Positions 34,501 through 64,000 of a stretch of 64,000 nt of DNA are shown one piece after another. The translations under genes and the position numbers were made by a program. Origin of the DNA: Gemmatimonadota bacterium (GTDB taxonomy: Bacteria > Gemmatimonadota > Gemmatimonadetes > Gemmatimonadales > GWC2-71-9); assembly GCA_036679605.1 (NCBI GenBank), contig JAZDCZ010000407.1, positions 1 through 64,000 of the forward strand, in the 5' to 3' direction. Position 1 is the stretch's first letter. The number at the start of each line of letters is the position of its first letter. The notes below the pieces were generated by a model. It saw nothing but the letters and a program-made list of their open reading frames with translations, searched no databases and was not told the DNA's origin.

Positions 34501-37500
34501 TACCTGGCCGACTCCCCGGAGGCTGCTAAGGAGTTCGCGGAGATGGCCTCGGACGACGCCTGTGACCGTTCGGTGGTGCTGGAGATCGTACTTCCCGAGG
34601 ACAGGGTTGCCCACCTCCGCGCCGACGCTGGATTTGACGGTGCCCCTGGTAACTTTGTTCTGAATGAGACCGTCCCGCTAGAGTGGATTCCGTGGTATCC
34701 AAATCCAGAAGATTCCGATCCCACTATGGCGTCCGCGCTGTTCTGCGCGGCCGTTAAGGCGACATCGGCGTCTGGGCTGGACTTAGCTGCTATCCGGGAG
34801 TTCTTAGAGTCTAAATGGGCCGCGAGGGGCAGGCCAGAACCTGGCCAGAATTGCATCACCACGGCGTCCTTCCTCTCCAAGCTGATCTCTGGCGCGGAGG
34901 TGCGGGGTGGACAGCCGGAGGGACACAGAAATCTTGTGCGGCATGGACTTGCCACGGATGAGGAATCTCGCTCCGGCGGCGGTTATAAAGATGACGAAGG
35001 TTACCTCTACCCCCACTTATGGGTGGAGTCCAATGGCATGGTATATGACCTGACGGCTGACCAGTTCGGCGGTGATCCGGTCACAGTCGTCCCCTCCGGC
35101 GGGCGGTATGTGCCATCAGAACTGTCCGAGAAGAATACACGCGCCCTCCGAGCGGTAGATGCGGAGACGGACGCTTGGTTGGAGGAATGGATGGCGCAGG
35201 CCAACACAACATCCGCCGCGCTCATTCTCTACCACGGTACCGCTATTCCCGACCTTGACAAGCTGCGTGTCGGCTCCGGGGCGGAACACATGCGCGTCGC
35301 GGGCGTGTACCTCTCCAAGAGCCGTGACGAGGCTGAGAAATACACCAAGGTGGCCGGAGTCAGACACCCTGAGAATATCCTCACGGTCGAAGCTAAACTG
35401 TCCAACCCCGCCACAAGGGACACGCTCGACGGAATGGATCGTCGCTTAGACGGATGGCAGGCACAGGCCGAACTTATCCGCCGTGGGTACGACAGTGTAA
35501 TCGATGATTTGATGGACGAGGTGATCGTGTTTGACCCCGCGAGGTTAAGAATTCTTGGAGACCGCACTGCAGCGACGGTCGACGAGTTCCTCGACCCTGT
35601 CATAGCCTCCACTCCATCGCCGTACCCATCATTGAAATGGGTAAAGAATCAACTCCAATACTGTTCGATGTGGTTGCCGATCCTTGACGCCTACATCATT
35701 GGCAGCGAGGCAAAGGGTACAGCCAGCCCAGATAGTGACTTGGACATCGCCGTGATCATCGGCGATGTGTCGCATTCGACATCGATCAGGTTCAGTGAGG
35801 ACTTCCACAGTGAGCAGATTGAACTCCCAGATTGGCAAGGACGCCAAGTGGATTTCCAGTTTTTCTACCCAGACGACCCTGAAATAAAAGAGTACTCGAA
35901 AATCCCCCTCGCCCCAGACTCCGAGTACACCAACACGACAGAAGCACTCAGGGAGAAGCTTATTCAGCGGGGCATCATCTCTGCGTCCCTCTCTTCGACC
36001 GCCCGAAGTGAGACGGCGACCGCGTACAAGACTCTGGCCACCGCCTTCTCGCGAGCCGCCTCTGCCGTGATCCCGCCGCTGAGCATGAGGGCATACCGCG
36101 CGGAGGGTTCCAGCCGAGGGGTGATGGCGGACGCCATGCTGGGCGGGATATACTTCTTCCCGAGGCGGGATACAGCCGAGCTTTGGGCTGGGGATCGCGG
36201 CACAGTGGTCGGGTGGATGATCGACACGAGCGACGCGGATGTGCAGGATGTGCCGGAGGGGGAGATGATCCGCAGGGACTCGGATGTGATAATCCGCCGC
36301 GACCCAGACGGGAGTGGCGATGTGCTGGAGATAGTGGTGTTTGACGATTCACTAATCCATCCGTTGGATAATCACACACACGCGGCTAGGCAAACATTCG
36401 AGTTGAGTACCCTCGGAGATACGGTCTCGTACGATGATGAGCTATATCACGGTACATCTATCAAGGCGGCCGCAGCGATAGCGAAGCGTGGGTTCAGCGT
36501 CGAGCAGCACGGCGAGATGAGCTGTGGCACCATATCGCTGACGAGGAATCCTGTCGCGGCGCAAATCTTCGCCGGACACGATGGCGTGGTTTTCGAGTTC
36601 GATATATCGCTTCATCGCTTGTTCGTCCTCCCCGAGTTCGTTTACGACGCCATGGGCTGCTACGCGGGAACAGGCATGTGTGGCGATGACTTCGTGCGCA
36701 GGATGTCGGAGAATGCCGACGCACTGAAGCGAATCGGTGCGGTGCCTGAGTCTTGGGATTCGGAGTCTGGGGAGCCGCCGGATTGGTCGGAGTGGAGAGA
36801 CAGCGACATGGACGAGTTCGGCTGGCTGGAGCGGTCGCTGCCCGGTTATGACGGCGTCGTCGTGCCTGGGTTCGACAGCAACCATCCGCGCGCCGAGGCG
36901 GAGATCGCCTTATTCATGCCCGCCACCGCTCGCCTCAAAGAGTCGGTCTCGGCGATGTATGTCGGCGAGAGGGAATACTGGAAGGGCGGCCCAGAAACCG
37001 AGTCCTTGGATGATGGTTGGGATGTCCTCGCCGGAATGGGAACGGACGAAGATGACGAAGAAGGGATGGAGTTGGACGCCGCTCTCTCGAAGGCTGCACG
37101 TGCCCTAGGCGAGCACCTCGGCGACACGGTGACTGCGTACAGAGCGCTCGCCACTGAGCACGCCGAGAAGGTCATGCAAGAGGGCTTCATGGGTCCCCAT
37201 CACGCACACGGTGTCTATTACACCGCCAGCCCAGAGCGGGCTATGTTCTACTCCAGGTTCATGGCGTCGTCCAAACTCCAAGGCGTGATATTCGAGTTGG
37301 AGGCCGACACCAGCCGTTCGACGGCTGATGTGAACGACACCACCGAGTGGCAGTCCAATGAGCTGTACGAGGAGGTCAAGTCGGCTGCGGGCGACATGGT
37401 CGAGACGGTATATAAGAACACTGAAACGCGGTTATGGGACAGCGACGCCGCAAGGTTACTGGAGTCATGGCTCGGCGGACTCACAGTGTCGGAAGGCTAC

Positions 37501-38763
37501 TACGATTCGCCGGAGCAGCACTCCGTGTGGCAGTTGCTCGCGGACGAGACCAAGGGGACGGACAGCGAGATGACGATCTCCGAGGCCAAGGACGCCCTGC
37601 CCCCCGGCAGGTACGGCGGGATGACGGTGCTGGACAGTCGAGGCGTCGCGGGGATCGACGCAGGTGAGATGGATGGTCAGGCCCAAGCGAAGTCCCAGGA
37701 GGGGATACCGGCGGACAGGCTGAAGGCCATATGGATTCCGACGGCCATGCTGCACTCTGCCGGAGTGGATGCCCCGGCTGGGGCGGAGACGATGGAGGAT
37801 TATGTGGATGTCATCCCAGCCAAATTTAACATGGACTACGACATTGACTTCGTCTCCGAGATCGAGAAACAGAGGGACGATGCTAGGGAAACAGGACCAC
37901 CACCAGGACTGGACAAGGAGGCTGAGGAGGTGTGGCATCTCGGAATGGAGGCGGTGGCCGATGAGATGGACTCCATCTTGGACAGGTGGCGGGACGAGGG
38001 TGACTCCACCATGCCAGGTCACATCTACTCGAAGCTTATTACGGGTGAAAGAGTGACCCCAGAGGACCTCGACCGCGAGGAGGGGTTCGTCAGGTATCCA
38101 TTGCCGCAGGGCAGGCTGCTTGTGACGAAGATACTGCGGAAGGCGATCGCGAGGCAGGGTCGGCGACCCGCTGAAGGGAAGGCCGCCCGGAGGGCGGCCT
38201 TGGATGACGATATAACGCACATCCTTCGGCACGCCGCTGATGGCATGGGTTGGAGCGAGGAGAGCGATGTTGATCCGGACAGTTTCGTTGACGAGGGGTT
38301 CATGGAGGACGAGAGTGGACACACCTTCTGGGGTTCGCGGGGAAGTGGGCTGCTTTTTGTGCGCAGCCATCCAGATCACGGTTGGGAATTATTGCTTGTA
38401 AAACGGTCACCAATAGTGGAGGAGCCGAACACATGGGGAACGACTGGTGGCGCGGTGCCGAAGGACGAGAATAACTTGTTCGCCTCTGCCGTGCGGGAGA
38501 CTCGGGAGGAGATAGGCGGTATCCCGCCATATGAGGCGGTCAGACAATATGTGTGGAAGGCTCTCGGCGGCAGCTTCACATACACGACATTCATTTTGGA
38601 ATGCACCGACATGGATTGGATGCCATCCGTATTTAACTGGGAGGCCACAGCCGCCCAATGGGTATCTCTCAAGGAAGCTAAGTCATATGAACTACATTTT
38701 GGTTTGGTGTCTATTTTGAAGGATTTGGGTGAGTCCATATTCCCCGCAACGGAGGATGTATGA
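28516..38763 (+). CDS. 3415-aa polyvalent protein: about 11 ADP-ribosyltransferase-like modules, GNAT, two papain/transglutaminase-like modules, Zn ribbon, ParB-like, minimal nucleotidyltransferase, NUDIX
   Basis: ART-like starts LYHAT, LYHST, LVHQT, FARFS, YWHGS, AWHGT, YWHGT, LYHGT (x2), AYRA (x2), each followed by a [YF]x[STA]-type strand. Other motifs: RGRGFG..FYEKLGF; DGGHRV; C..H.W..D.T; GSEAKG..DSDLD; GG..SAVRETREEIG. Confidence 0.8.
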   Translation: MDRLPPILYHATLPKNVQNILRHGLIPQDESYNLGSDGIHRNRVFLSKFDDPQYMNLSADKVYDAVILAVDTLYLDPSRLYPDDSIYGAYFNDQLEDTDIGAMFPDYYRSWGASGSAIGFGEWMNNPANSPSDDDLENMLAGRFGLTLWNSGGIDAPFELGEVGYEGRIPPEAINLRAPVPALRSAALRVGGQYLYHSTLADYLLEIAEDGLDPFYGGRNFQGGPKDSDGWVEGKLFFSDDPQKALYYGENAMSRKWTERKTPPVLLRVTKSAIEVQPDQYGDFYTEDSVPASIIEVKAPVSMEVGSPLAWEPLTEELAEDARSLFCGDYLGRDKPLFLAPDFSPKKAAIDEYIVELTDNDHGGVTAFLAANSGVGQVEDAYADIHMGMAEEFQGDTHPYNYFRPDEPIEESGIVAVLTGLELPKSLRGRGFGRDMVDAAVKWAFSHGAEAVYTHSFGAPGDSDPTGFYEKLGFETVDMDNMGNPYMRLEHLPASTSQSRSTRTASKEPAFMRALSNAAALPPDDVTTAAVSKVMGGTLVHQTAGSHGSPSEDTSEKIQSILESGVDPSYWAKQWPGSPGEGHPKAAYLSLAWPSILSDPVPGYVAVEPKLSRPLVLWSGDSEGNYTWGPALNAATGKSGSSLSSFLRSKGYDSVITVRRDGEIGEVAYFGKKPLPASLIPSRVAVLLRSASAIIHNAAVEDIYRGVKTVIEKYGGKGLFARFSDVPKIGIRPSTEHHDPYGVYFYPVDWLAENAGFGTTYINRTYITVAKIKRSGWLNLATIRPAKARELAEKGGVLEEYKARTEGKGLNQAKGGRAGKRLWDAVEAKVKPFESKANKMEWNRIFGRMGVKAIYDPGTGSVNSAEPSQIVVLDLSLIEVVDVVENHEDRKSVYHAVLKAVADEILDEDWRVSGSHAEGGISAAGTVNGRPVAMSVMPAKSGFEMEVTLSYHDPSGRKHRIVSRGRMPNEWEDAPAGYLAEGHAKSILRSLEDAVIGESGEEDAEDILDSALRSLTDLRLPDLTVKEMKGGIEFWKNTGDGKIQGSLKVAPGGRREMELYAEDWLLFGGDDSVVIEIGPMRVSWDGDPSSASTDMAAELSRAVRELRAIGDAGENKDINMDAAAEIVRMRTLSWMFPDDILTAAGQKYERMKSTARSASLRIAKQQYWHGSSGVNIREIASAGFVNPWVPKGESCRGYQKPMSGRTYATTDLSYALIYALGAAMVGQELPNNQNFDGEGGIVLLEAGGDPLPDEDWVGELIAECESRRRRMRGDLNARGGDVPEWKENLYIEMRRQLPPEVVSMIDRKPIWKLDEMATQSMIGKNVNKWLLKHDGALKTKLVHHSPHHSYAGTMRVIKAWVFNKREISPKLEKDGSNFLKLAMEIPVAKAVSASLCSYDDYKPYSCSPSGVCMPSRVTPDIHDAVSRLFGGKCPCPRCKSVDRTASSVEDKCWSHAVEALAANGFEDMDGMCLEASVVLCERLRDEGVDARLARRWSDEYGGHWTVCTSAGEFDPTIAWWGDSAPKGASKGQLYEVTNVSPHAGWEKDDSVDESTAYRIAIEELGVDDLENLYDNALEGILSRSARRVAMPYLHEPKCPYCGHMGPQDPKVEFWESLSDDYRGFLERYYGTEDRLEIARKLMWDRTVPTYCGKCGQTYLFEKSESDSLAEKVAGRFKAWHGTSDILLDDIHTAGGLIDPYLAATLSLAEYYAGVAAENDGGSPIVLEIDIRDRSRLRYDGNAMDEPVTVGVSEADRDFEWGRAEKEHPEWVHGDTISIPADEWEYSWRGAHSVRYDGLLPSSGISSTAWESRSEGSDFGREASATLTFGALPPAVQTDITDNIHDMFFAGTDVSREILRGVLEDMDTPLPVRRLPVADLAGQARSTHCVSETVVSTLADTLRRVGDLDLVLTDGVRFLDGGHRVMAYESEGKGSIPTVDVSSLLSADWESEFREDILGLGRAARRILATAVRYWHGTTAAAMRSAERDGYLRPPVYLADSPEAAKEFAEMASDDACDRSVVLEIVLPEDRVAHLRADAGFDGAPGNFVLNETVPLEWIPWYPNPEDSDPTMASALFCAAVKATSASGLDLAAIREFLESKWAARGRPEPGQNCITTASFLSKLISGAEVRGGQPEGHRNLVRHGLATDEESRSGGGYKDDEGYLYPHLWVESNGMVYDLTADQFGGDPVTVVPSGGRYVPSELSEKNTRALRAVDAETDAWLEEWMAQANTTSAALILYHGTAIPDLDKLRVGSGAEHMRVAGVYLSKSRDEAEKYTKVAGVRHPENILTVEAKLSNPATRDTLDGMDRRLDGWQAQAELIRRGYDSVIDDLMDEVIVFDPARLRILGDRTAATVDEFLDPVIASTPSPYPSLKWVKNQLQYCSMWLPILDAYIIGSEAKGTASPDSDLDIAVIIGDVSHSTSIRFSEDFHSEQIELPDWQGRQVDFQFFYPDDPEIKEYSKIPLAPDSEYTNTTEALREKLIQRGIISASLSSTARSETATAYKTLATAFSRAASAVIPPLSMRAYRAEGSSRGVMADAMLGGIYFFPRRDTAELWAGDRGTVVGWMIDTSDADVQDVPEGEMIRRDSDVIIRRDPDGSGDVLEIVVFDDSLIHPLDNHTHAARQTFELSTLGDTVSYDDELYHGTSIKAAAAIAKRGFSVEQHGEMSCGTISLTRNPVAAQIFAGHDGVVFEFDISLHRLFVLPEFVYDAMGCYAGTGMCGDDFVRRMSENADALKRIGAVPESWDSESGEPPDWSEWRDSDMDEFGWLERSLPGYDGVVVPGFDSNHPRAEAEIALFMPATARLKESVSAMYVGEREYWKGGPETESLDDGWDVLAGMGTDEDDEEGMELDAALSKAARALGEHLGDTVTAYRALATEHAEKVMQEGFMGPHHAHGVYYTASPERAMFYSRFMASSKLQGVIFELEADTSRSTADVNDTTEWQSNELYEEVKSAAGDMVETVYKNTETRLWDSDAARLLESWLGGLTVSEGYYDSPEQHSVWQLLADETKGTDSEMTISEAKDALPPGRYGGMTVLDSRGVAGIDAGEMDGQAQAKSQEGIPADRLKAIWIPTAMLHSAGVDAPAGAETMEDYVDVIPAKFNMDYDIDFVSEIEKQRDDARETGPPPGLDKEAEEVWHLGMEAVADEMDSILDRWRDEGDSTMPGHIYSKLITGERVTPEDLDREEGFVRYPLPQGRLLVTKILRKAIARQGRRPAEGKAARRAALDDDITHILRHAADGMGWSEESDVDPDSFVDEGFMEDESGHTFWGSRGSGLLFVRSHPDHGWELLLVKRSPIVEEPNTWGTTGGAVPKDENNLFASAVRETREEIGGIPPYEAVRQYVWKALGGSFTYTTFILECTDMDWMPSVFNWEATAAQWVSLKEAKSYELHFGLVSILKDLGESIFPATEDV

Positions 38764-40820: not shown

Positions 40821-42072
40821 GAAGGCGAGTGGGAATACCACCCCCCCTTGTGGGGGTGGATGAAAACGAGCATCTTCCGCAATCCTTTCGATAGAATAAC
40901 ATGTGAAAATGGTTCGTACAGTATCATTGCGTCCAAACCTTCCGAAGGACAGGTTCCTTCCAATGCTCGAGTCCTGCGTCGAAATCTTCGATGAACACAC
41001 CAGATGGGCGACTGAGAACAGGACATACAGCAAACAAAAAGCTCATGAAGCACTCTATCGCAGCATCCGCGAATCCCGCCCGGAGATCCCGTCCGCCATC
41101 CTCCAAGCGACGAGAGATTGCGCTCTTGAAGCATCCAAAAGATGCAATAAGGGCAACAAAGGCGAATGGAAGACGCCTACGAAAAACACTCTCAGTGTCA
41201 GGTATGACCTGCGCACACTCTCTGTACGCGGCAATCTCCTGACCCTGTCCTGCATCGGCAGGCGGTTCAGGATTGTGCTTGACTGCGGAGATGCTCGCAG
41301 CTCGACGCCTGACACGATGGTTTTGCGCATCCCCGAGCATTTCCGGAATGTCGTCCAAAACTGGAAATGCAAAGCTGCCACGCTGAAATACGACAAGCGC
41401 AATGGGTTCAAGCTTCACCTCAACTACGATATGGAAGCCCCTCCTAAGATCACAGGCCGTGGGTTGGGCATCGATCTCGGCATCAGGAATTTCGCCGTCA
41501 CTTCTGACGGCAAAAGGCACCCCGGTCTGCGGACTGCGAAGCGGCGCTACGGCCACAACAGACGCACATTGCAGGCAAAAGGCACCAAGTCCGCCAAAAG
41601 GCGTTTGCGCGCCGTGGCGGGCAAGGAAATGCGGTTCAGCCGCGATGTGAGAGGCAGACGGCTCAACCGAGAAATCGGTAGTTGGCCATGCCTGTTCCTA
41701 GATTCCGTATGTCCGCATTCAGAGCAGCGCTGACTGGTGTACGCAGGCGGGACAGTCACGACCGTCTTGCCTAGTGCATCGGCCTTGTAGGTCAGACAGA
41801 AAAGGAAGGCAGGATGTGTGGTATTTGTTGTCATTCTGACACCAACGCTGCTAAAAACATCCTTTTTGTGCATGAGACCGATGTTAAGCTCCATGCATCA
41901 GTTCCCTGCTCTCCCGCCTCGCGCCGCAAAGCGCCTTGTGGGCAGGCTGCTGTCAATCAGCCGAAATGCAGGACTTGTTACACGCCGATAGCGTGTGACA
42001 TTTCCAGCATTACGATGCGGCAGGCTTTCAGCTTAGCTGCAAGCCACCGGCCTTGTGCTGGTGGTAATTGAC
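40821..42072 (+). mobile_element. IS200/IS605-family tnpB-only element (copy 2); TAM TTTAT; right end ...GGTAATTGAC
   Basis: Subterminal hairpins at both ends. Removing the element restores a stop codon to the flanking macrodomain gene. Confidence 0.88.
40903..42071 (+). pseudogene. tnpB: Rearranged tnpB (RuvC-II region deleted, Zn-finger segment inverted)
   Basis: GIDLG is present but EDL is absent; YKA...YTSQRC..C reads on the minus strand at about 41687-41807; DTNAAKNI resumes on the plus strand. Confidence 0.85.
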
Positions 42073-50014: not shown

Positions 50015-50089
50015 GGGAGTGTAGCTTAGTCTGGTTAAAGCAGTCGACTCATAATCGACCGATCGTGGGTTCGAATCCCACCGCTCCCA
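50015..50089 (+). tRNA. tRNA with CAT anticodon, probably Ile2 (lysidine type)
   Basis: Full cloverleaf; GTCGA-CTCATAA-TCGAC resembles bacterial Ile2 anticodon arms; no encoded CCA. Confidence 0.85.
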
Positions 50090-53865: not shown

Positions 53866-55029
53866 TCACGGACGGGCCAGAGCCTTCCTCTTCACAGGCG
53901 TTTTGAGCCGGGTTGTACCCGACTTTGGTCCCCCGTCGTTCACGGGTACCAGATTCAACAGATTCATCGCCGCGTTCAAGTCCCGATCCATCTCAAGTCT
54001 GCAGGCATGACAATGGAACACGCGCTCACTGAGCTTCAGCTCGGCGCGCACTGCTCCACAGTCGCTGCATGTCTTGCTGGACGGGAAGAACCTGTCCACG
54101 ATCACGAGTTTGGTTCCGTAGATCAGGCACTTGTACTCCATCTGTCTCCTGAACTCGTACCAGCCCATGTCGGCGATGCTTCTGGCCATCCTGTGATTGC
54201 GCATCATTCCGCTGACGGACAGGTCTTCGATCACCACCGCTTGGTTCTCGCGGCATAATTTGGTGGTCAGCCTGTGTAATGTGTCCTTACGGATGTTCCT
54301 GATGTGCTTGTGCAGCTTGGCCAGTCGTCTCCTAGACTTCTCCCTGTTCTTCGATCCTTTCTTCTTCCTCGAATGTTGCCTGGAACAGCGTTGCAGCTTC
54401 TTCAACGACTTCTTCAGTGGCTTCGGCCCCTCAATCTTCTCTCCAGTCGAAAGCGTCGCCAGCGTCGTGATGCCGAGATCCACTCCGACTTCGCCGTCGG
54501 CTGTCCTCTCCTTCCTGTAGTTATCACCGACATCCACCTGCACGGAGAGCATCCACCTGTCGCCGTCTCTGCGGATTGTCGCACCCATAACCTTGCCAAC
54601 GTATCTCAGCTCCTCGTGCATCCTGATTGGTCCCAGCTTGAACTTGTCAGGCCCGAGGTGTAGGGTCTTGCCATTGAACTCCATCTCCCTGTGGCAGACA
54701 TAGAAGCTCTCCGGGCTGCGGTGCTTTGCACGGAATTTCGGGTGCCTCGCCTTCTTGCGGAAGAACGCGGAGTAGGACTTCTGGAGCTGAATCCACGGAT
54801 ATGCGTAGACATAGTTCGACACTTCACCCATCCACGGGAACATCTCCTTCCGGGTCGCGTTGAACTCCTGCCTGAGCTTCCCGGGGTTCGCCTTGCCATC
54901 CTTCTTGTATGCCGCTTTCCACATCGCCAGGGCGTTGTTGTACGCGAACCGTGCCGTTCCGGCGGCGCGTGCGAAGTACTCGTACTGCCGTTTGTTCGGG
55001 TTCAAGGCTATGGAATGGGCCAGAATCAC
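53866..55029 (-). CDS. tnpB: Intact TnpB RNA-guided nuclease (IS607-type N-terminus); no adjacent tnpA
   Basis: GTARFAYN, GVDLG, VIEDL, FPSSKTCSDCG, DRDLNAAMN. Confidence 0.95.
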   Translation of the reverse strand: MILAHSIALNPNKRQYEYFARAAGTARFAYNNALAMWKAAYKKDGKANPGKLRQEFNATRKEMFPWMGEVSNYVYAYPWIQLQKSYSAFFRKKARHPKFRAKHRSPESFYVCHREMEFNGKTLHLGPDKFKLGPIRMHEELRYVGKVMGATIRRDGDRWMLSVQVDVGDNYRKERTADGEVGVDLGITTLATLSTGEKIEGPKPLKKSLKKLQRCSRQHSRKKKGSKNREKSRRRLAKLHKHIRNIRKDTLHRLTTKLCRENQAVVIEDLSVSGMMRNHRMARSIADMGWYEFRRQMEYKCLIYGTKLVIVDRFFPSSKTCSDCGAVRAELKLSERVFHCHACRLEMDRDLNAAMNLLNLVPVNDGGPKSGTTRLKTPVKRKALARP

Positions 55030-57251: not shown

Positions 57252-58151
57252 TTAGCTACAGATGTGGTACTTGTTCTGCCACGCGATGTACAGGTTCAGG
57301 TGATCCTGCAACCGCGTCGCCAGCTTCGAGATGCACCATGTTTTGCGTCGCAACCGCGCGATGTCCGCACGCATCTTGGCGCAGGTGTGGTTGATGCGGA
57401 ACAGCGGGTCGAAGCCACCGTCGCAGCCGTCCCGACGACCGCTGGACACATATGTCCTGTGCTTCGCACTTGGCACAATTGTAGCAATAAGCCTGCGGTA
57501 GTGGTTCAGCTCGTCCGTGGCGATGGTCGCGCCAGGCTTCGCGCACACGGCCACAGATTCCAACACTTCCCGACGGATTCTCGTGCGCTCGTCGGCACGC
57601 TTCCCGTAGCGGCGCTCGCTGTCGGCCTTCCTGTGCTTGCAGGTGATCGTCCCGACGCGGGCGTCGATGATCTGCCCAGTGCTGGCACGGACAGCCAAGG
57701 CGATCATCAGCGGCTTCAATTTCGTGTGTTCCACGGATTCCATGTCGTCGAACTGGACGAACGAGGTCTCCATGTCGCCGCCTCGCAGCGCCTCCGCATG
57801 CGCATCCGCCGCACGGGATGCCAGCCAACGGAACTTGCGTTCGACGGTTCTCCTTGCGATTCCAGCGACATCTGCGGTTCGGCGCTGTGTCATGCTGTTC
57901 GGCATGCTGTGTTCCACCTGCCTGTTCACATGCGGCTTGTGCTGTCCGGCGGTTGGGGTTCCTGTGCGGCTGTTGAAGCACTTGCCGCAGGCGCGGCAGG
58001 AGTATCGCGGCACGGCGCGGTGGTCGTGCTTCGTCCTGTAGTACCCGCGCTTGATCCAGAAGCGGTTTGAGCCGTAAAGCCGTTCGGAACCGTTCGATCC
58101 GTCGCGGAAGCGGCACTTCTGGTTCGGGCATTTGGTGGGCTTGGTGAACAT
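57252..58151 (-). mobile_element. IS1-like DDE transposase (Zn ribbon + HTH + RNase H fold); ends not identified
   Basis: CPN..C, RYSCRACGKCF, VQFDDME, IATDE, LRRKTWCISK. Confidence 0.75.
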
Positions 58152-58451
58152 CAATTCAAGTATACGATATCCTGTCGCAAGATGGATGACCTTCGGGCGA
58201 CGGAAGGCAGCGATGTCTGGGTGCGGTAATAACCGTGAACCCGCCCACCACGGCTGCAAATAGCGGTTTACAGCCCCATAACCAAGCGCACTAAAATATG
58301 GCACTTACATCAGATGTTTTGTAGCCGCTGCTCTTTGTTGTGGGTCTGCAAGGCGTCACCGGCACGAATGTCGTGTGAAAATGGTTCGTACAGTGCCGCA
58401 ATCCTTCTTTCGATAGATGTCGCTACGCGAGCGCTCGGCTTTGAATAGTCC

Positions 58452-59290
58452 TTATTTCCACATCCCTTTCATGTCGTACCACTCGATTCGCAAATTATTG
58501 GCATACGGCCCAGAGGTTGGAGACCACCCATTCAGCGGCGTCCTCAAAGTCTTTCGCGGGGGCATCCTCATGGTACAAGTCCGGATCGGCACCGAACACC
58601 ACCCTGCCAGAGGCGTCCTGCACATGCCAACCATCATCACTGCCGTTCCACAGGATGAATATCCTGTCCGGCGGAATCTCGGGGCTGGCCGCACAACCGG
58701 ACGGTGCGTGAGAGTATTCTCCGACCCCAGAATATGACTTGGCTCTCCTCGTCCCCGTAGTGGTACGCCTCGACGCCGCCGACCCAGAAGACCACGGCGT
58801 GCTTCCCGTACTTCGGATCGGCGTCGAAGTATCCGGATGCGGCGTTCCTCGCGTCCCTGGAACCGACGACGAACGCGAAGTTGTAGCCAGGGCCGCGTTT
58901 CCTAACATTGTCAGTGAAATGCGTCGTCAGTCCGAGTCCCTCGGTGCCGTCCCATCCGTACTTGAACCCGTTCTCCGCGATGTCATCCGGATCGTCCGTG
59001 AAATGCACGAGCCATGTCGGCCTGACAAGGCGGCTGTATTCCATGTGCTCGTAGACTGGCCGATCCAAGCTACTGGGGAGCCGCGACTCCTCGATGTGTC
59101 TCCTGAATTCCTCAATCCTGCCCGCCGTCGCGGAATCCACCCACTCGTACAGTTTGTCGTAGTCCGGCAGTCCGTCCTCGTCGCGCCAGTCGCCGGATTC
59201 CTCGCTCTCCAGCCAATCCGCGAGTTCCTCGGCGTAGTCATTCGGGTCGAAGCCGGACTCGAGGTACCGCTTCAGGTAACCCTGCTCCAC
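58452..59290 (-). pseudogene. Stand-alone ART-like module, frameshifted by an ~40-nt insertion
   Basis: WLVHFTD..IAENGF...YNFAF...DEESQVIFWG; the reading continues in another frame as PEIPPDRIF... Confidence 0.55.
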
Positions 59291-59411
59291 ATGCTATCTA
59301 AGGTGGAGGAGAAGCGCAAGAGGCTCCGACGCGATCGAGCTAAAGCCGCCGGACGCACGAAACTGTCGGCTCCCCAGTGAATTATGGTTGAGTTGATGCC
59401 CACGCCCGAAT

Positions 59412-59440
59412 TTGACATTATCGCCCGATGGATGTATAAT
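59412..59440 (+). promoter_or_regulatory. Perfect sigma70 consensus promoter
   Basis: TTGACA-N17-TATAAT. Confidence 0.85.
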
Positions 59441-59527
59441 ACATCACGAGGTGCAATCCGTACCGGTATGTTTCCGCCAGTGCGAGAGACATGCCTTTCC
59501 GGTCAGCTCGTGCAAAAGGAGGCTCAT

Positions 59528-59827
59528 ATGGCGAAACAGAGGCAGTCTGTACAGAAGAGGATACGTGAGCAGAAGAAACGGGAACGGGAGCAACGGAAAC
59601 ATGCGAAGGCCACCGCGAAGGCGGAACGCCGTAAGGGCAGCAATGCGATGACCGAGGCGGAGTACGACAGGGCTATGATTCGTATCAAGGAACTCATGGA
59701 CACAGATGCCAAGAAGGATTCCCCAGAGGGGGAGGAGTTGGATCTTCTATCCACCCGTGTCGAGGGGTACGAGAGAGAACATAACCATCTAGGCGATGGA
59801 CAAGGCGAACTCGGCGCGATAGAGTAG
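59528..59827 (+). CDS. Basic helix fused to a HigA-antitoxin N-terminal-like domain (no HTH)
   Basis: AAGGAGG RBS; TEAEYDRAMIRIKELMD...SPEGEELDLLSTRVEGYEREH. Confidence 0.7.
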   Translation: MAKQRQSVQKRIREQKKREREQRKHAKATAKAERRKGSNAMTEAEYDRAMIRIKELMDTDAKKDSPEGEELDLLSTRVEGYEREHNHLGDGQGELGAIE

Positions 59828-59922
59828 TACCGGAGAACCAAGCGATGCACATGTCACACAAAATTGGAGGGCGTCAGGCCGTAATCAGCCAGTCTTAGTT
59901 ACTCAAGACAAAGGAGGTTGAC

Positions 59923-60303
59923 ATGGCAAACGAGCGCCGAGACCCGAAGAGGGAGAAACTCCGAGACCTGCGACGCATGGACACAGGGCGCCTCTCGGGC
60001 ATCTTCTTCAAGCGCCACCCAGAACACGACTGGAGGAACTTCAAATTCCTCCTAGGGACTTCTTGGGAGGATCGTCGCATGCGCTGGCGTGAGTCCGACC
60101 GCGTCGGGGATGAGTGGATTCTTCGTGCTGTCGGTCCCGGTCGCTCGCGATACTCATGCGGAGTACCGCCTGCGTCGTTCCGCCGCGGACTTAACAGGAA
60201 ACGCCGCGCCCAGATGAAGCAGGCCATGAGTAAACAGCTATGCGACGGGGATGATGTGACAAATCCCCGCCCCCACCGCAATGTCCGCTGGGAGTGGTGG
60301 TAG
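59923..60303 (+). CDS. Hypothetical Arg-rich protein
   Basis: AAGGAGG RBS. Confidence 0.65.
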   Translation: MANERRDPKREKLRDLRRMDTGRLSGIFFKRHPEHDWRNFKFLLGTSWEDRRMRWRESDRVGDEWILRAVGPGRSRYSCGVPPASFRRGLNRKRRAQMKQAMSKQLCDGDDVTNPRPHRNVRWEWW

Positions 60304-60358
60304 GGACTGGCCGTAGCGGTCGGTGTTCGATTTGCGATAACATCGAGTGGCAAGCTGA

Positions 60359-60629
60359 GGAGCAGTGCGCGCCGAGTTGAAGCTCAGCGAGCGCGTGTTC
60401 CATTGTCAAGCCTGCGCGGCGATGAATCTGGAGAATTTGCTGGCCGAGCTGTTCGACGTCTGTGGAGAGGAAGGCTCTGGCCGTCCGTGACGGGGTAAAC
60501 CCCGCTGCGGCCGAAGCAGGAGCCTACGAAATGTCGGCATTCGGTTGTACAAGATGGGAAAAGACTAGAATCCCGACAAAAATCCCGACAAAGTGCTGGG
60601 ATTCCTATAACCAAACACACTCAAGTAGG
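60359..60629 (+). pseudogene. tnpB: Deleted 3' remnant of the IS607-type tnpB with its right end
   Basis: GAGCAGTGCGCGCCGAG[T/C]TGAAGCTCAG...TTCCATTGTCA, GAGGAAGGCTCTGG, and CCTATAACCAA..AAGTAGG all match 53786-54060. Confidence 0.85.
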
Positions 60630-60647
60630 AGAGTTATGGCGGGCAAA

Positions 60648-60719
60648 AGCTGCTGGTCGGAGTCGAACCCACAATTCGGACTTACAAAATCCGCGTGTTA
60701 CCGTTGACACTACAGCAGC
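60648..60719 (-). tRNA. tRNA-Thr(TGT)
   Basis: Cloverleaf; loop TTTGTAA; one T-stem mismatch. Confidence 0.8.
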
Positions 60720-60723
60720 AGAA

Positions 60724-60795
60724 TCGTGGCACTCGGATTCGAACCGGGAACCTCAGCTTTATGAGAGCCGCGCTCTTCCAATGAGCTATGCCACG
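60724..60795 (-). tRNA. tRNA-Met(CAT), non-initiator
   Basis: Cloverleaf; loop CTCATAA; C1-G72 is paired. Confidence 0.85.
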
Positions 60796-60798
60796 TAA

Positions 60799-60870
60799 CT
60801 TACCGGACGGGAGTCGAACCCGCGACAATTCGCTTAACAGGCGAATGCTCTGCCACTGAGCTACCGGCAA
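60799..60870 (-). tRNA. tRNA-Asn(GTT)
   Basis: Cloverleaf; loop CTGTTAA; G73. Confidence 0.9.
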
Positions 60871-60873
60871 GAC

Positions 60874-60946
60874 CTGCAGGGGTGGGAATCGAACCCACAA
60901 TGACCGCATTAACAGTGCGGCGCTCTACCAGTTGAGCTACCCTGCA
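60874..60946 (-). tRNA. tRNA-Asn(GTT), second divergent copy
   Basis: Cloverleaf; loop CTGTTAA; G73. Confidence 0.9.
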
Positions 60947-60952
60947 ATAACA

Positions 60953-61013
60953 AGCTGGCCCGGGAATCGAACCCGGAATATCCACTCGCTCTACCAGATT
61001 GAGCTAGGCCAGC
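60953..61013 (-). pseudogene. tRNA pseudogene with the anticodon arm deleted (Thr-like acceptor)
   Basis: Acceptor, D and T arms are intact; only 11 nt lie between the D and T arms. Confidence 0.75.
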
Positions 61014-61029
61014 AGTTCCCTTCCTTCAA

Positions 61030-61103
61030 AGTCGCCACCGGGATTTGAACCCGGACCGCCTGGGTGGAAGCCAGGTATGCTATCCGTTAAACACCACGGC
61101 GAC
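61030..61103 (-). tRNA. tRNA-Gly(TCC)
   Basis: Cloverleaf; loop CTTCCAC; U73. Confidence 0.85.
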
Positions 61104-61114
61104 GCAGTAAAAAA

Positions 61115-61188
61115 AGTCGCTGGCGGGATTCGAACCCGGCACCTCCTCGATGGCAACGAGATGTGCTACCGTTAAACACCACAACGAC
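61115..61188 (-). tRNA. tRNA-Gly(GCC)
   Basis: Cloverleaf; loop TTGCCAT; U73. Confidence 0.85.
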
Positions 61189-61234
61189 AATTTGGCTTCT
61201 CCTCTGCCTCCTGTTTCATCAGATCACCCCCTGC

Positions 61235-61296
61235 ACTCAAACCTCCGCCCTTCGGCTTCGCAAGCCGACGCTCTGATCCAATTGAGCTACATGGAC
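61235..61296 (-). pseudogene. tRNA-Arg(GCG), truncated after the T loop
   Basis: D arm and TCGGC-TTGCGAA-GCCGA are intact; the 3' T strand and acceptor strand are missing. Confidence 0.75.
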
Positions 61297-61305
61297 TCAT
61301 CCAAA

Positions 61306-61373
61306 AGCCACCGGAGGGAATCGAACCCCCGCCATCTCCTTACGAAAGAGACAGGTTACCACTACACGGTGGC
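61306..61373 (-). tRNA. tRNA-Thr(CGT) with a D-stem deletion (probable pseudogene)
   Basis: Acceptor and T arm intact; loop TTCGTAA; 5' D strand missing. Confidence 0.7.
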
Positions 61374-61443
61374 AAAATGGGTCTGGGATCAATTTGGGTT
61401 ACCCCCATAAGCGTAAAAGCCCGCCGGCTATCCCAGACCCAAA

Positions 61444-61513
61444 AGCCGCCGACGGGAGTCGAACCCGCGATCTCTTTTTTACCGAAAAAGTCTTCCAACT
61501 GAGCTACAGCGGC
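61444..61513 (-). tRNA. tRNA-Thr(GGT) with an ~3-nt D-stem deletion (probable pseudogene)
   Basis: CTTTT-TCGGTAA-AAAAG; GAGC shortened to GA. Confidence 0.7.
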
Positions 61514-61522
61514 GTACCAACG

Positions 61523-61556
61523 AAAAAAGCCCCGAAGACTTTCGTCTCCGGGGCTT
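61523..61556 (-). terminator. Attenuator terminator upstream of the tRNA array
   Basis: AAGCCCCGGAGAC-GAAA-GTCTTCGGGGCTT-TTTT. Confidence 0.85.
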
Positions 61557-61581
61557 CGCAAATTCAGTTCAATGCGAAAGC

Positions 61582-61668
61582 TTAGCCGAGGACGCACCTC
61601 CGTCCGCGCGTACCATTATTGGTTGTCCCGGCCATGTCGTTACGGAATGTAGATGCGCTCGTTTGCAT
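61582..61668 (-). CDS. Putative leader peptide MQTSASTFRNDMAGTTNNGTRGRRCVLG
   Basis: Lies between the promoter and terminator; its stop codon falls inside the antiterminator strand. Alternative ATGs at 61680 and 61635. Confidence 0.65.
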   Translation of the reverse strand: MQTSASTFRNDMAGTTNNGTRGRRCVLG

Positions 61669-61684
61669 AACTTTCACCATTTCC

Positions 61685-61713
61685 AGTGTATCGCGCCACC
61701 GAGCCATAGTCAA
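61685..61713 (-). promoter_or_regulatory. sigma70-type promoter of the leader/tRNA array
   Basis: TTGACT-N17-TACACT. Confidence 0.75.
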
Positions 61714-61859
61714 ACGGAAATTTTTGTCTACCACATGGCGACCGTACATACCAGTGTCAGGAATAGTATCCAGAGTCCTCTCTTCAGGCCTTCCGAATCC
61801 GTACCTAAAATGTTCAAAAGCCTGCCCATGCCGAATTATAGGCTTGCCAAGCCGCCGAA

Positions 61860-63758
61860 TCAATGTACTTCAAACTCTGCGTCTATGACATCGTCCTTTT
61901 CCGGCGGATCATTATCACCCCCTTCTTGGCCATCATCGACCGTCGCTCTTTGTGTTGCCTCGTATATCGCCTTGCCCATCTCCTGCGCGTCGCACATGAG
62001 CGAATCTCTAGCCTTCTCGATGGCGACCGTGTCGTCGCCTTTCAGAGTATCCCGTAGGGAAGACACGCTGGATTCGATCTTGGATCTTGTCTCTGCCTGT
62101 ACTTTGTCCCCGAACTCCTCAAGCTGTTTCTCCGTCTGAAATGCCAGTGCGTCTGCCTGATTTCGAAGCGCGACCAGCTCAGCCTTCTTTTTGTCGTCGT
62201 CGGCGAAGGCCTCTGCGTCCCGTTTCATGCGTTCGATTTCATCTTTGCTAATCCCACCGCCGTCCTCTATCCTGATGGACTGCTCTTTTCCGGTGGCCTT
62301 GTCCTTGGCGGACACGCTGATGATCCCGTTTCTGTCGATGTCGAATGCCACATCAATTTGTGGTACGCCACGTGGGGCAGACGCTATGCCGGAGAGGTTG
62401 AATCTGCCGAGCGTGCGGTTGTCGGTCGCCATCGGGCGATCGCCCTGTAGCACATGCACTGTGACTTCCGTCTGACCATCTGCTGCGGTGGAGAATGTCT
62501 CCGACTTGGATGTCGGGATGGTCGTGTTGGCGTCGATGAGCTTGGTGGTTACGCCGCCAAGGGTCTCCAACCCCAAAGCGAGCGGCGTGATGTCGAGCAG
62601 GACGATGTCGTCCTTGTCGCCGGACAGTATAGCTCCTTGGATTGCCGCGCCGATAGCTACCACCTCATCGGGGTTGACACCCTTGCTCGGCTCCTTGCCG
62701 AACAGTTCGTGGCATAGTTCCCGCACGGCTGGTATCCTAGTCGATCCGCCGACCAGTACTACCTCGTCGATGTCCTTTGCGGTCAGTTTGGCACCAGAGA
62801 GCGCGTCAGCGACTGGCTTTCGGCATCTGCTGGTCAGTTTGGAGGTGATTTGCTCAAACTTGCTCCGATTGATGGTTTCTTGTAGATGTTTGGGACCAGT
62901 GTCGGTGGCGGTGATGTACGGCAGATTCACGGTAGACTCCACTGCGGTGGACAGTTCACACTTCGCCTTCTCGGCTGCCTCCCTAAGCCTCTGCCGAGAC
63001 GCTGGATCTGTCAAGATGTCCACCCCCTCCTGCTTGCGGAATCCCTTGGCCAAGTGCGCGACTAACGCCTCGTCGTAGTCGTCGCCGCCGAGATGGCCGT
63101 CGCCGCTGGTACTCAAGACTTCAAAGGTGCCGACATCTGGGTCGATTTCCAGAATGGACACATCGAAGGTACCCCCGCCAAGGTCAAACACCGCGATTCG
63201 CTGCTCCTTTTTTTTGTCGAGTCCATAGGCAAGTGCGGCTGCCGTCGGTTCATTGATGATGCGCTCGACCTTTAGGCCAGCGATCTCCCCAGCGTCCTTG
63301 GTGGCTTTTCGCTGCGCGTCGTTGAAGTATGCGGGGACCGTGATGACTGCCCGCTCAACCTTCTCGCCGAGATAGGCTTCTGCGGTGTTTTTTAGGTCCT
63401 GCAGGATCATGGCACTGATCTCCGCCGGCCCGTATTCCTTGTCTTGAATCTTTATCTTGACTGGGTTCTTGCCTTTGCTGCTGATGACTTTATAGGCAAC
63501 GCCCTTGTCTGCTTCGGACACTTCGCTGCCCCGCCGCCCCATGAACCGTTTGATTGAATGTACTGTGTTCTCGGCGTTTGTGATCTGCTGGTGATGGGCT
63601 GTTTTCCCCACTAGGCGTTCACCCTTGGCCGTTATGCCGACCACGGACGGTGTAGTGCGTGAACCCTGTTCATTCGTCAGCACCTTGGCCACATCGCCCT
63701 CCATCACCGCCACAACCGAGTTTGTCGTTCCCAGATCGATACCTATGATTTTTGTCAT
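61860..63758 (-). CDS. dnaK: Chaperone DnaK (Hsp70)
   Basis: [53 protein letters not shown]. Confidence 0.98.
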
Positions 63759-63808
63759 GTCGTGCTCCTTGTGAAAAAGTGTCCTCTATCCTTACTATAC
63801 CCGTAACA

Positions 63809-63823
63809 GCAAGTCATGTGCCA
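63809..63823 (-). promoter_or_regulatory. sigma54 (-24/-12) promoter of dnaK
   Basis: TGGCAC-ATGAC-TTGC; an upstream TGCCA-N3-TGGCA palindrome at 63876-63888. Confidence 0.7.
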
Positions 63824-64000
63824 CGCGAAAACCTACTTCTGTCCGTGTAAACCGCCCCTATTGCCAGTTCCTTGCTGCCAATATGGCACTTGGCAGGCAG
63901 TCCGCTGTTGTTTTCTTTTCGGATTCCGCCATAGTATATGAGACTCTACGGGTTTATGGTCGTGAGGAACGAGGCCGACATCGTCTCTGAGTCCATCACA

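What the first reader, a model, noticed from the sequence alone, without database searches (positions are those of the whole stretch)
60648..61713. Codon-matched leader-peptide attenuator controlling a backup tRNA array
Seen (minus strand): promoter TTGACT-N17-TACACT, then a 28-codon uORF, then a GC-rich terminator with a U-tract, then 10 tRNA genes. The uORF core reads ATG GCC GGG ACA ACC AAT AAT GGT ACG CGC GGA. Apart from GCC, every codon is read by a tRNA in the array: Thr TGT/GGT/CGT, Asn GTT x2, Gly TCC/GCC, Arg GCG, Met CAT. The RNA also shows classical attenuation geometry. A GGACG/CGTCC hairpin competes with an antiterminator (GTCCTCGG with CCGGAGAC, plus GCTTTCGCA with TGCGAAGC) that would sequester the terminator's 5' strand, and the uORF stop lies in the antiterminator strand. 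Established: this is trp/thr/ilv-type ribosome-mediated attenuation, normally found on amino-acid biosynthesis operons. Inference: here it senses loss of specific tRNAs (for example cleavage by anticodon nucleases or toxins) and expresses replacements. I am not aware of this being described for tRNA arrays.
Basis: partly seen in the sequence, partly recalled or inferred. Interest (0 to 1): 0.92.

Follow-up and report, generated by a model that had tools for sequence, protein, structure and literature searches.

The report
Leader-peptide attenuators gating phage tRNA arrays
A giant-phage-like DNA places a tiny test gene, written in the codons that a block of its tRNA genes can read, in front of a switchable transcription stop, so it probably makes those tRNAs only when ribosomes read these codons slowly, a control known for amino-acid genes but not found described for tRNA genes.

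Summary
The promoter, 28-codon leader, terminator/antiterminator and tRNA block are real, but only 6 of the 10 tRNA-derived genes look intact. The DNA is a 155-kb jumbo-phage-like contig, not the binned chromosome. The same contig carries three more tRNA blocks, each behind its own promoter and leader; two share this terminator at the same spacing. Each leader is enriched only for its own block's amino acids (p 1e-4 to 9e-4; all 12 cross-pairs p>=0.05). Folding models switch off the antiterminator once the ribosome passes the matched codons, as E. coli thrL does in the same model. Across 14 other viral or metagenome loci, leader and tRNA content co-vary (11 of 200,000 permutations). Cultured Stenotrophomonas phage Moby has the same layout. 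The leaders sample many synonymous codons (p=0.003), which suits sensing tRNA supply rather than amino acids. Translation and termination were not observed; nuclease sensing is inference. Against: this copy's antiterminator is imperfect, block D has no terminator, and half of the outside loci do not match. Ten literature searches found no description. This scan noted the same layout earlier in at least 7 other genomes.

The parts
61685..61713 (-). sigma70-type promoter, TTGACT-N17-TACACT
   Evidence: similar promoters precede blocks B, C and D
61582..61668 (-). 28-codon leader ORF MQTSASTFRNDMAGTTNNGTRGRRCVLG* (in-frame ATG at 61680 gives 32 codons)
   Evidence: enrichment is in this frame only (17 of 27; other five frames 7-11 of 27)
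61603..61635 (-). control codons M12-G22; modelled sensitive window N18-R21 (AAT GGT ACG CGC)
   Evidence: antiterminator probability 0.42-0.76 for a stall at codons 18-21, at most 0.07 elsewhere
61585..61632 (-). protector (1:2) helix: GCCGGGAC 61632-61625 with GTCCTCGGC 61593-61585, enclosing GGACG/CGTCC
   Evidence: z -1.6, 11 of 200 shuffles
61544..61593 (-). antiterminator (2:3): GTCCTCGG with CCGGAGAC plus GCTTTCGCA with TGCGAAGC
   Evidence: -17.9 kcal/mol; alone not better than shuffles (21 of 200; 28 of 200)
61523..61554 (-). intrinsic terminator (3:4) with U6 tract, starting 27 nt after the stop codon
   Evidence: this terminator type occurs 3 times on the 155-kb contig, before blocks A, B and C
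61444..61513 (-). tRNA-Thr(GGT), D-arm deletion (ARAGORN calls Tyr)
   Evidence: Rfam 39.5 bits
61378..61440 (-). tRNA-like remnant with an 11-bp closing stem ending CCA; identity unknown
   Evidence: z -4.3
61306..61373 (-). tRNA-Thr(CGT), shortened D arm
61232..61296 (-). tRNA-Arg(GCG) fragment, 3' part lost
   Evidence: (24.9 bits)
61115..61188 (-). tRNA-Gly(GCC), unusual acceptor stem (U2-A71)
   Evidence: (43.7 bits)
61030..61103 (-). tRNA-Gly(TCC), same unusual acceptor stem
   Evidence: (36.8 bits)
60953..61013 (-). tRNA remnant without anticodon arm
60873..60947 (-). tRNA-Asn(GTT)
   Evidence: 70.7 bits
60798..60871 (-). tRNA-Asn(GTT)
   Evidence: 66.4 bits
60724..60795 (-). tRNA-Met(CAT), elongator-like
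   Evidence: 60.4 bits
60648..60719 (-). tRNA-Thr(TGT), one T-stem mismatch
   Evidence: (52.6 bits)

Best explanation
A ribosome-mediated transcription attenuator gates a tRNA block of a jumbo-phage-like element. Shown in sequence: promoter, short ORF, competing hairpins, terminator, tRNAs directly behind. Inferred: RNA polymerase starts at the promoter and a ribosome translates the leader. If Thr, Asn, Gly, Met and Arg codons are read quickly, the ribosome reaches the last codons, covers the antiterminator's 5' strand, and the terminator stops transcription 9 nt before the first tRNA. If the ribosome waits at the matched codons, the antiterminator forms and the tRNAs for those codons are made, which closes a negative feedback loop on tRNA supply. 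The element splits its tRNAs into at least four codon-group modules with one leader each. The trigger is most likely shortage of functional tRNA (host nucleases, host tRNA decay or phage demand); starvation for the amino acid would trip the same switch.
For: (1) Contig C343 has four tRNA blocks, each behind a promoter and a 20-29-codon ORF: B Glu/Ala/Gln, C Leu/Trp/Tyr/Pro, D Lys/Arg. Own-block matches: A 17 of 27 (7.3 expected), B 10 of 20 (3.5), C 10 of 19 (3.3), D 10 of 28 (3.1), p 1e-4 to 9e-4; all 12 cross-pairs p>=0.05; the true pairing is best of 24 in all 6 scoring modes; B+C+D alone combine to p=8e-8. Enrichment is highest in the reading frame in all four. (2) A, B and C share the stop-hairpin-terminator core (78% mean column identity) with gaps of 27, 27 and 26 nt; GGAGAC becomes GGTGAC in C, and both partners change with it (GTCACC, GTCATC). 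(3) Modelled antiterminator probability falls from 0.4-1.0 to near 0 about 6-7 codons before the stop in A, B and C, as for E. coli thrL in the same script; shuffles reach the observed value in 0 of 200 (B), 8 of 200 (C), 0 of 200 (thrL). (4) In 14 other viral or metagenome loci the own-array fraction is 0.247 against 0.162 (11 of 200,000 permutations). Two more leaders came from a search by neighbouring protein, not by terminator. Phage Moby has a leader whose codons 2-19 name 14 of the 15 amino acids of the block behind its terminator (0 of 3815 windows of local ORFs do so). (5) The four leaders use 35 distinct synonymous codons against 29.0 expected (p=0.003), whereas E. coli thrL uses ACC in 7 of 8 and leuL CTA in 4 of 5. 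(6) The contig encodes a Pnk/phosphoesterase/RNA-ligase protein, TROVE/Ro60 and a 2H phosphoesterase, which by family knowledge act in RNA repair and conflict.
Against: No translation, transcript end or induction was observed. Block A's own antiterminator is imperfect and is reached by 21 of 200 shuffles (trpL 53, hisL 12 of 200 in the same test); the model makes only codons 18-21 sensitive. Four of A's ten genes are damaged, and both Gly tRNAs have unusual acceptor stems, so their charging is unknown. Block D has a matched leader but no U-tract terminator. Untranslated B and C keep the antiterminator in the model (0.74, 0.78; thrL 0.88). The single tRNA-CAT at 50015 sits directly behind a terminator without a matched leader. 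Of the 14 outside loci, 7 rank 4th or worse for their own array, and 9 more of the 23 had no qualifying ORF; G+C differences between phages were not controlled. In bacterial genomes 3 of 10 loci had an ORF and the test was not significant. Four of 6 cultured phages show no such unit. No close homologue of leader A was found, so its conservation is untested.
Confidence: 0.8

Rival explanations
1. The attenuator is real but reads amino-acid starvation or a general slowing of translation, not loss of particular tRNAs; the tRNA block is then a general stress or timing output.
For: Any stall at these codons trips the switch (established mechanism; PMC1183508, abstract and section 10 read). The match is stronger by amino acid than by strict anticodon pairing (A: p=1e-4 against 6e-3). 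Leaders hold codons with no intact reader in their block (CAG in B; CGT, CGC, CGA in D).
Against: Extra tRNA does not relieve amino-acid shortage (inference). Each module matches only its own block, which a general sensor would not need. Synonymous codons are spread out (p=0.003) and lean to A-ending codons (16 against 9.7, p=0.02), unlike thrL and leuL. Unmatched codons often correspond to tRNA remnants in the same block.
Confidence: 0.12
2. A relic: the circuit once worked, but this copy is decaying and is now mostly off or leaky regardless of translation.
For: 4 of 10 genes damaged plus a further remnant; mismatch in A's antiterminator; remnants in blocks B, C and D; D without terminator.
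Against: Promoter, SD-like site, open frame, spacing and terminator are all intact in A, B and C, and six tRNAs of A score above the Rfam cut-off with full arms.
Confidence: 0.1
3. The terminator is an ordinary insulator or is bypassed by a phage antitermination protein; the short ORFs are chance.
For: The contig encodes a NusG-family protein and a sigma-70 region-4 protein. The tRNA at 50015 follows a terminator with no matched leader. Several outside loci are 3' ends of ordinary genes.
Against: Does not explain the 4 x 4 specificity, the frame specificity, the fixed 26-27 nt spacing or the two-way compensatory change.
Confidence: 0.05
4. A T-box-like RNA in which uncharged tRNA pairs directly with the codons, without a ribosome.
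For: Codons complementary to anticodons lie upstream of a terminator/antiterminator pair.
Against: No T-box match in Rfam at the cut-off or down to E=1 over the four units. The codons form a run in one open frame with start and stop.
Confidence: 0.02

Closest known systems
Leader-peptide transcription attenuators of enterobacterial amino-acid operons (thrL, ilvL, leuL, hisL, trpL; multivalent thr and ilvGMEDA closest)
   Same: Short ORF with clustered control codons, antiterminator overlapping the end of the ORF, GC-rich terminator with U tract. Stop-to-terminator gap 26-27 nt against 24 in thrL, leuL and ilvL; same stall profile as thrL in one folding script.
   Different: The controlled genes are tRNAs, not enzymes. 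Three to five amino acids per leader, spread over synonymous codons, while thrL and leuL repeat one codon. Several modules divide the genetic code within one phage-like genome.
Leader peptides before aminoacyl-tRNA synthetase genes (His leader before Bacillus hisS paralogues, PMC2965389 passages read; pheM-pheST recalled)
   Same: Attenuation tunes a part of the translation machinery to the supply of charged tRNA.
   Different: The output is the charging enzyme, one amino acid, chromosomal; here it is the tRNA set itself.
Anabaena trn operon repressed by TrcR (PMC10272220, passages read)
   Same: An accessory tRNA array on an extrachromosomal element, silent until translation is stressed.
   Different: Controlled by a DNA-binding repressor at initiation, one signal for 26 tRNAs; the text has no occurrence of 'attenuat' or 'leader'.
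Phage tRNAs that counter tRNA-cleaving defences (PMC11555353 and PMC10264068 passages read; PMC11464382 PARIS, listing and abstract start only)
   Same: Phage tRNAs replace depleted host tRNAs.
   Different: The passages seen ascribe supply to a strong promoter or to cleavage-resistant anticodon loops; no sensing of depletion is described there.
T-box riboswitches
   Same: tRNA status decides between terminator and antiterminator.
   Different: No T-box fold here; sensing runs through a translated ORF.

Membership tests
Leader-peptide (ribosome-mediated) transcription attenuator | Short ORF between promoter and terminator, enriched in codons linked to the downstream genes | tested here: met
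Leader-peptide (ribosome-mediated) transcription attenuator | Intrinsic terminator with U tract ahead of the first controlled gene | tested here: met
   for A; for B and C; absent in D
Leader-peptide (ribosome-mediated) transcription attenuator | Antiterminator that excludes the terminator and is freed by a stall at the control codons | tested here: met
   (model): clear in B (0 of 200 shuffles) and C (8 of 200), weaker in A (21 of 200); compensatory change
Leader-peptide (ribosome-mediated) transcription attenuator | Protector or pause hairpin (1:2) | tested here: inconclusive
   present in A (11 of 200 shuffles); untranslated B and C keep the antiterminator in the model, as thrL does
Leader-peptide (ribosome-mediated) transcription attenuator | Leader is translated and read-through depends on it | not testable with these tools
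   needs ribosome profiling, 3'-end mapping or reporters
Amino-acid operon attenuators (trp/his/thr/leu/ilv/phe class) | Controls biosynthesis or synthetase genes of the sensed amino acid | tested here: not met
   only tRNA genes follow the terminator
Amino-acid operon attenuators (trp/his/thr/leu/ilv/phe class) | Control codons biased to one starvation-sensitive synonym | tested here: not met
   35 distinct codons against 29.0 expected; E. coli controls; bias described in PMC1183508 section 10
T-box riboswitch | Stem I with specifier loop and T-box antiterminator bulge | tested here: not met
   no Rfam T-box match
Jumbo phage | Capsid, portal or terminase genes | tested here: inconclusive
   none among 43 ORFs scanned with PHROGs or 93 with Pfam, out of about 158 ORFs; only a collagen tail-fibre-like hit; the contig is a fragment
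Jumbo phage | Replicon separate from the chromosome, with viral relatives | tested here: met
   7 of 7 core genes tested have a second copy in the bin at 27-57% identity and no DNA of 100 bp or more is shared; the neighbour protein has 35 IMG/VR loci, 21 on contigs over 100 kb, and none in genome contigs

The most novel reading that the evidence does not exclude
Large phages widely carry modular, codon-resolved sensors of tRNA depletion: each tRNA block is transcribed only when the ribosome reports that exactly those tRNAs are missing, which lets a phage detect which anticodon nuclease its host has fired and resupply the right tRNAs. The leader sequences would then be a readable record of the tRNA attacks a phage expects, and phage Moby offers a cultured test case.
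Probability: 0.5. Interest if true: 0.92.

Novelty: new variant of a known kind. Interest (0 to 1): 0.82.

Why it matters
Why phages carry tRNAs has been argued for decades (codon compensation against replacement of destroyed host tRNAs; PMC10264068 abstract and passages). A switch that ties each tRNA block to the decoding speed of its own codons makes the question directly testable: whatever induces the block is what the tRNAs are for. It also extends classical attenuation from enzymes to the tRNA pool, as a feedback loop without any protein regulator. This contig gives an internal four-by-four control, and the unit in a cultured phage gives a bench model. The leaders could serve as compact reporters of tRNA depletion.

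Tried and rejected
Relatives of the binned genome: 60 genomes match only single or paired tRNAs; none of the 150 listed matches (39 more not listed) covers the leader (G015 is unpublished and enters only this tally). Strict attenuator pattern: 0 viral loci, 1 genome locus that is an ordinary gene-end terminator. DnaK search in viral contigs found nothing; in plasmids only ordinary dnaK genes. Leader A against cultured phages: no match. Sequencing runs: no RNA holder listed; only contigs could be laid. Equilibrium folding of the whole leader always gives the terminator in A and C, but also in thrL, leuL, hisL and trpL, so I did not count it against the switch. A fixed test at 9 codons before the stop fails for L216, L024, leuL and ilvL, whose switch point lies elsewhere. 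Of 35 loci found by the neighbour protein, 10 hold tRNAs and 3 (2 distinct) show terminator plus leader; L348 with a 10-tRNA cluster does not. The Moby unit is 98.9-100% identical in 16 records, too close to show selection. A relaxed genome-wide tRNA scan was too noisy and its output was cut. A GroEL search added nothing. ARAGORN's Tyr call in block A and SeC call in block B were rejected from the sequence in favour of Thr-GGT and Glu-TTC. A formal pair count on the alignment was not obtained; the compensatory change is read by eye.

Full report
Observation. On the minus strand the window holds TTGACT-N17-TACACT (61713-61685), an ORF of 28 codons from ATG 61668 to TAA 61582 (32 from an in-frame ATG at 61680), a terminator at 61554-61529 with six U, and tRNA sequence from 61513 to 60648. 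The terminator folds far better than shuffles (z -6.0). ARAGORN tRNAs and Rfam 8 above its cut-off. Six look intact (Gly GCC, Gly TCC, Asn x2, Met, Thr TGT). Thr-GGT and Thr-CGT have D-arm deletions, Arg-GCG is truncated (24.9 bits) and one copy lacks the anticodon arm. A public contig is identical over 58000-64000 (it may be the source of this DNA).

What the DNA is. The window is the start of contig C343 (155,416 bp, G+C 0.556, against 0.582 for the bin), an outlier in tetranucleotide use among the large contigs. Its dnaK, infC, nusG, ruvB, rne, ftsH and upp each have another copy in the bin at 27-57% identity, and it shares no stretch of 100 bp with other contigs. It encodes glycosyltransferases, DNA methylases, a 3415-residue polyvalent protein, a Pnk/phosphoesterase/RNA-ligase protein, TROVE/Ro60 and a 2H phosphoesterase. 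A protein 1.4 kb from the array has 76 hits among 295 candidates; a profile of 32 of them found 35 IMG/VR loci, 21 on contigs over 100 kb, and none in genome contigs. No capsid, portal or terminase was found in the ORFs scanned. I read it as a fragment of a jumbo phage or similar giant element; its host is not known.

Internal test. C343 has 24 ARAGORN tRNAs, 23 of them in four blocks. Blocks B (C343 115276, Glu/Ala/Gln), C (131701, Leu/Trp/Tyr/Pro) and D (149584, Lys/Arg) each follow a promoter and a short ORF: MLMIAATREQEQAAEARGVSG*, MMNLTLSPWLLPYLPEEGVT*, MNTQFHLDKRLRPSRPLISGGRRPRRLKR*. Against codon use in 107 contig ORFs, own-block counts are 17 of 27, 10 of 20, 10 of 19 and 10 of 28 (expected 7.3, 3.5, 3.3, 3.1; p 1e-4 to 9e-4). 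All 12 cross-pairs have p>=0.05, and the true pairing is best of 24 in all six scoring modes. Equal-length windows of contig ORFs reach these counts in 0.03-0.7% of cases. With intact tRNAs only, A gives 13 of 27 (p=1e-3; 2.5% of windows); by strict anticodon pairing with intact tRNAs only it falls to p=0.07. The reading frame scores highest of six in all four, though D's reverse frame 1 comes close (9 against 10).

RNA switch. A, B and C share a core from stop codon to U tract (78% mean column identity), with 27, 27 and 26 nt between stop and terminator. This terminator type occurs three times on the contig, always here, and four times in the other 6.5 Mb. Where A and B have GGAGAC, C has GGTGAC, and both its partners change. 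I blocked 15 nt from each A-site codon and folded the transcript up to 5 nt past the terminator loop. The antiterminator holds while the ribosome is on the matched codons and collapses 6-7 codons before the stop: B 1.00 to 0.00, C 0.75-0.88 to 0.00, A 0.42-0.76 (codons 18-21 only) to 0.00. E. coli thrL, fetched as a control, behaves like B. Shuffles reach the observed value in 21 (A), 0 (B) and 8 (C) of 200, against 0 (thrL), 12 (hisL) and 53 (trpL); leuL and ilvL fail this fixed-position test. So A's switch is plausible, but weak taken alone. A's unmatched GCC codon lies in a protector helix. D has no U-tract terminator.

Outside evidence. Scans for a terminator followed by a tRNA plus two loci from the relaxed attenuator pattern gave 89 loci, 57 non-redundant, 33 with a terminator of -10 kcal/mol or better and a tRNA within 100 nt. 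Of the 23 viral or metagenome loci, 14 had a closed 12-60-codon ORF ending 15-45 nt before the terminator. Their own-array fraction was 0.247 against 0.162 (11 of 200,000 permutations); 5 ranked first, 2 second, 7 fourth or worse. L024 and L238 come from one phage, and base composition was not controlled. L216 has five Gln codons, four of them CAG, before a single tRNA-Gln(CTG). Among 10 bacterial-genome loci, 3 had an ORF and the test was not significant. The 35 loci found by protein gave two further leaders, before Trp/Phe and before Ser/Trp/His/Ile/Met/Asn/Arg. Of 6 cultured phages examined, Stenotrophomonas phage Moby (MN095772.1) has an unannotated 27-codon ORF ending 30 nt before an annotated terminator and a 16-tRNA block; codons 2-19 all belong to the block and cover 14 of its 15 amino acids (0 of 3815 local windows reach 14). 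One Paraglaciecola phage was a weak case and four showed nothing. In 13 hand-picked leaders, matched codons fill 103 of 181 positions 7-20 codons before the stop and 23 of 78 of the last six (p=7e-5); the picking favours enrichment, not position.

Which signal. The four leaders spread over synonyms: 35 distinct codons against 29.0 expected (p=0.003); D holds all six Arg and both Lys codons, A all four Gly codons. E. coli thrL uses ACC in 7 of 8 Thr codons and leuL CTA in 4 of 5, though hisL uses both His codons; PMC1183508 (abstract, section 10) explains such bias as tuning to amino-acid starvation. Sampling each isoacceptor suits a check on tRNA supply, and more tRNA would not cure starvation. 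This is inference; any stall would trip the switch.

Comparison and novelty. It works like the thr and ilv attenuators but fails membership of the amino-acid operon class, because it controls tRNA genes. It is not a T-box. The nearest regulated array, the Anabaena trn operon, uses a repressor (PMC10272220, passages). Phage tRNAs that offset defence nucleases are known (PMC11555353 and PMC10264068, passages; PMC11464382, listing), with no sensor in the passages seen. Ten full-text searches (listings and abstract starts read) and term look-ups in PMC2965389, PMC12803027 and PMC6409571 found no attenuator on a tRNA array; subscription journals and preprint supplements were not covered. This scan's own notes report the same layout in at least 7 other genomes, none in this genome or on similar sequence; I used them as leads only and had formed my reading before seeing them.

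Verdict. Observation largely right, gene count overstated. Attenuation of tRNA blocks by codon-matched leaders: about 0.8. Sensing of nuclease-driven tRNA loss as the purpose: about 0.5. A new variant of a known mechanism with a new kind of target; interest 0.82.

Noticed in passing
window 50015-50089 (+): A single tRNA-CAT (Ile2-like by its arms, recalled pattern) starts right behind a strong terminator with ten U that ends a 71-codon membrane-protein gene; there is no codon-matched leader.
   Followed up: partly
G000:C343 149584-149092 (L231): Block D (Lys CTT, Lys TTT, Arg TCT, damaged Arg CCG, Arg CCT) has a leader with all six Arg and both Lys codons but no intrinsic terminator; lost, or Rho-dependent.
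   Followed up: partly
G000:C343 about 115430-115597 (L229): A Gln-like tRNA 5' end and T-arm/3' end are separated by about 130 nt of other sequence: an interrupted or decayed tRNA.
   Followed up: no
window 61378-61440 (-): Stable tRNA-like hairpin ending in CCA inside block A (z -4.3); the contig also encodes TROVE/Ro60, so a Y-RNA-like role is possible but untested.
   Followed up: partly
L359 4750-4900 (MN095772.1, Stenotrophomonas phage Moby): Unannotated 27-codon leader, 10-bp antiterminator helix and terminator before a 16-tRNA block; present in 16 records of related phages.
   Followed up: yes
L293 (Chryseosolibacter histidini contig): A bacterial-genome tRNA array (Asn, Asp, Arg, Lys, Ile, Met, Val, Trp) behind a terminator and a 42-codon ORF with 51% matched residues.
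   Followed up: partly
window 28516-38763 (+): 3415-residue polyvalent protein with GNAT, ADP-ribosyltransferase-like, Tpt1-like, nucleotidyltransferase and NUDIX hits.
   Followed up: no
G000:C343 79820-82081: 753-residue protein joining kinase-like, metallophosphoesterase and T4 Rnl1-type RNA ligase domains: a candidate tRNA repair enzyme.
   Followed up: no
window 53866-55029, 40903-41733, 57252-58304: IS605/TnpB-type genes and a transposase-like ORF without Pfam hit; a similar ORF lies at C343 128600.
   Followed up: no
window 58637-59290 (-): Protein with no Pfam or PHROGs family, with an invariant W-x-x-H-F motif, found on many jumbo-phage contigs and in no genome contig.
   Followed up: partly
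G000 as a whole: The bin is 6.7 Mb while 60 relatives are mostly 2.5-4.5 Mb, so it may hold more foreign contigs than C343.
   Followed up: no
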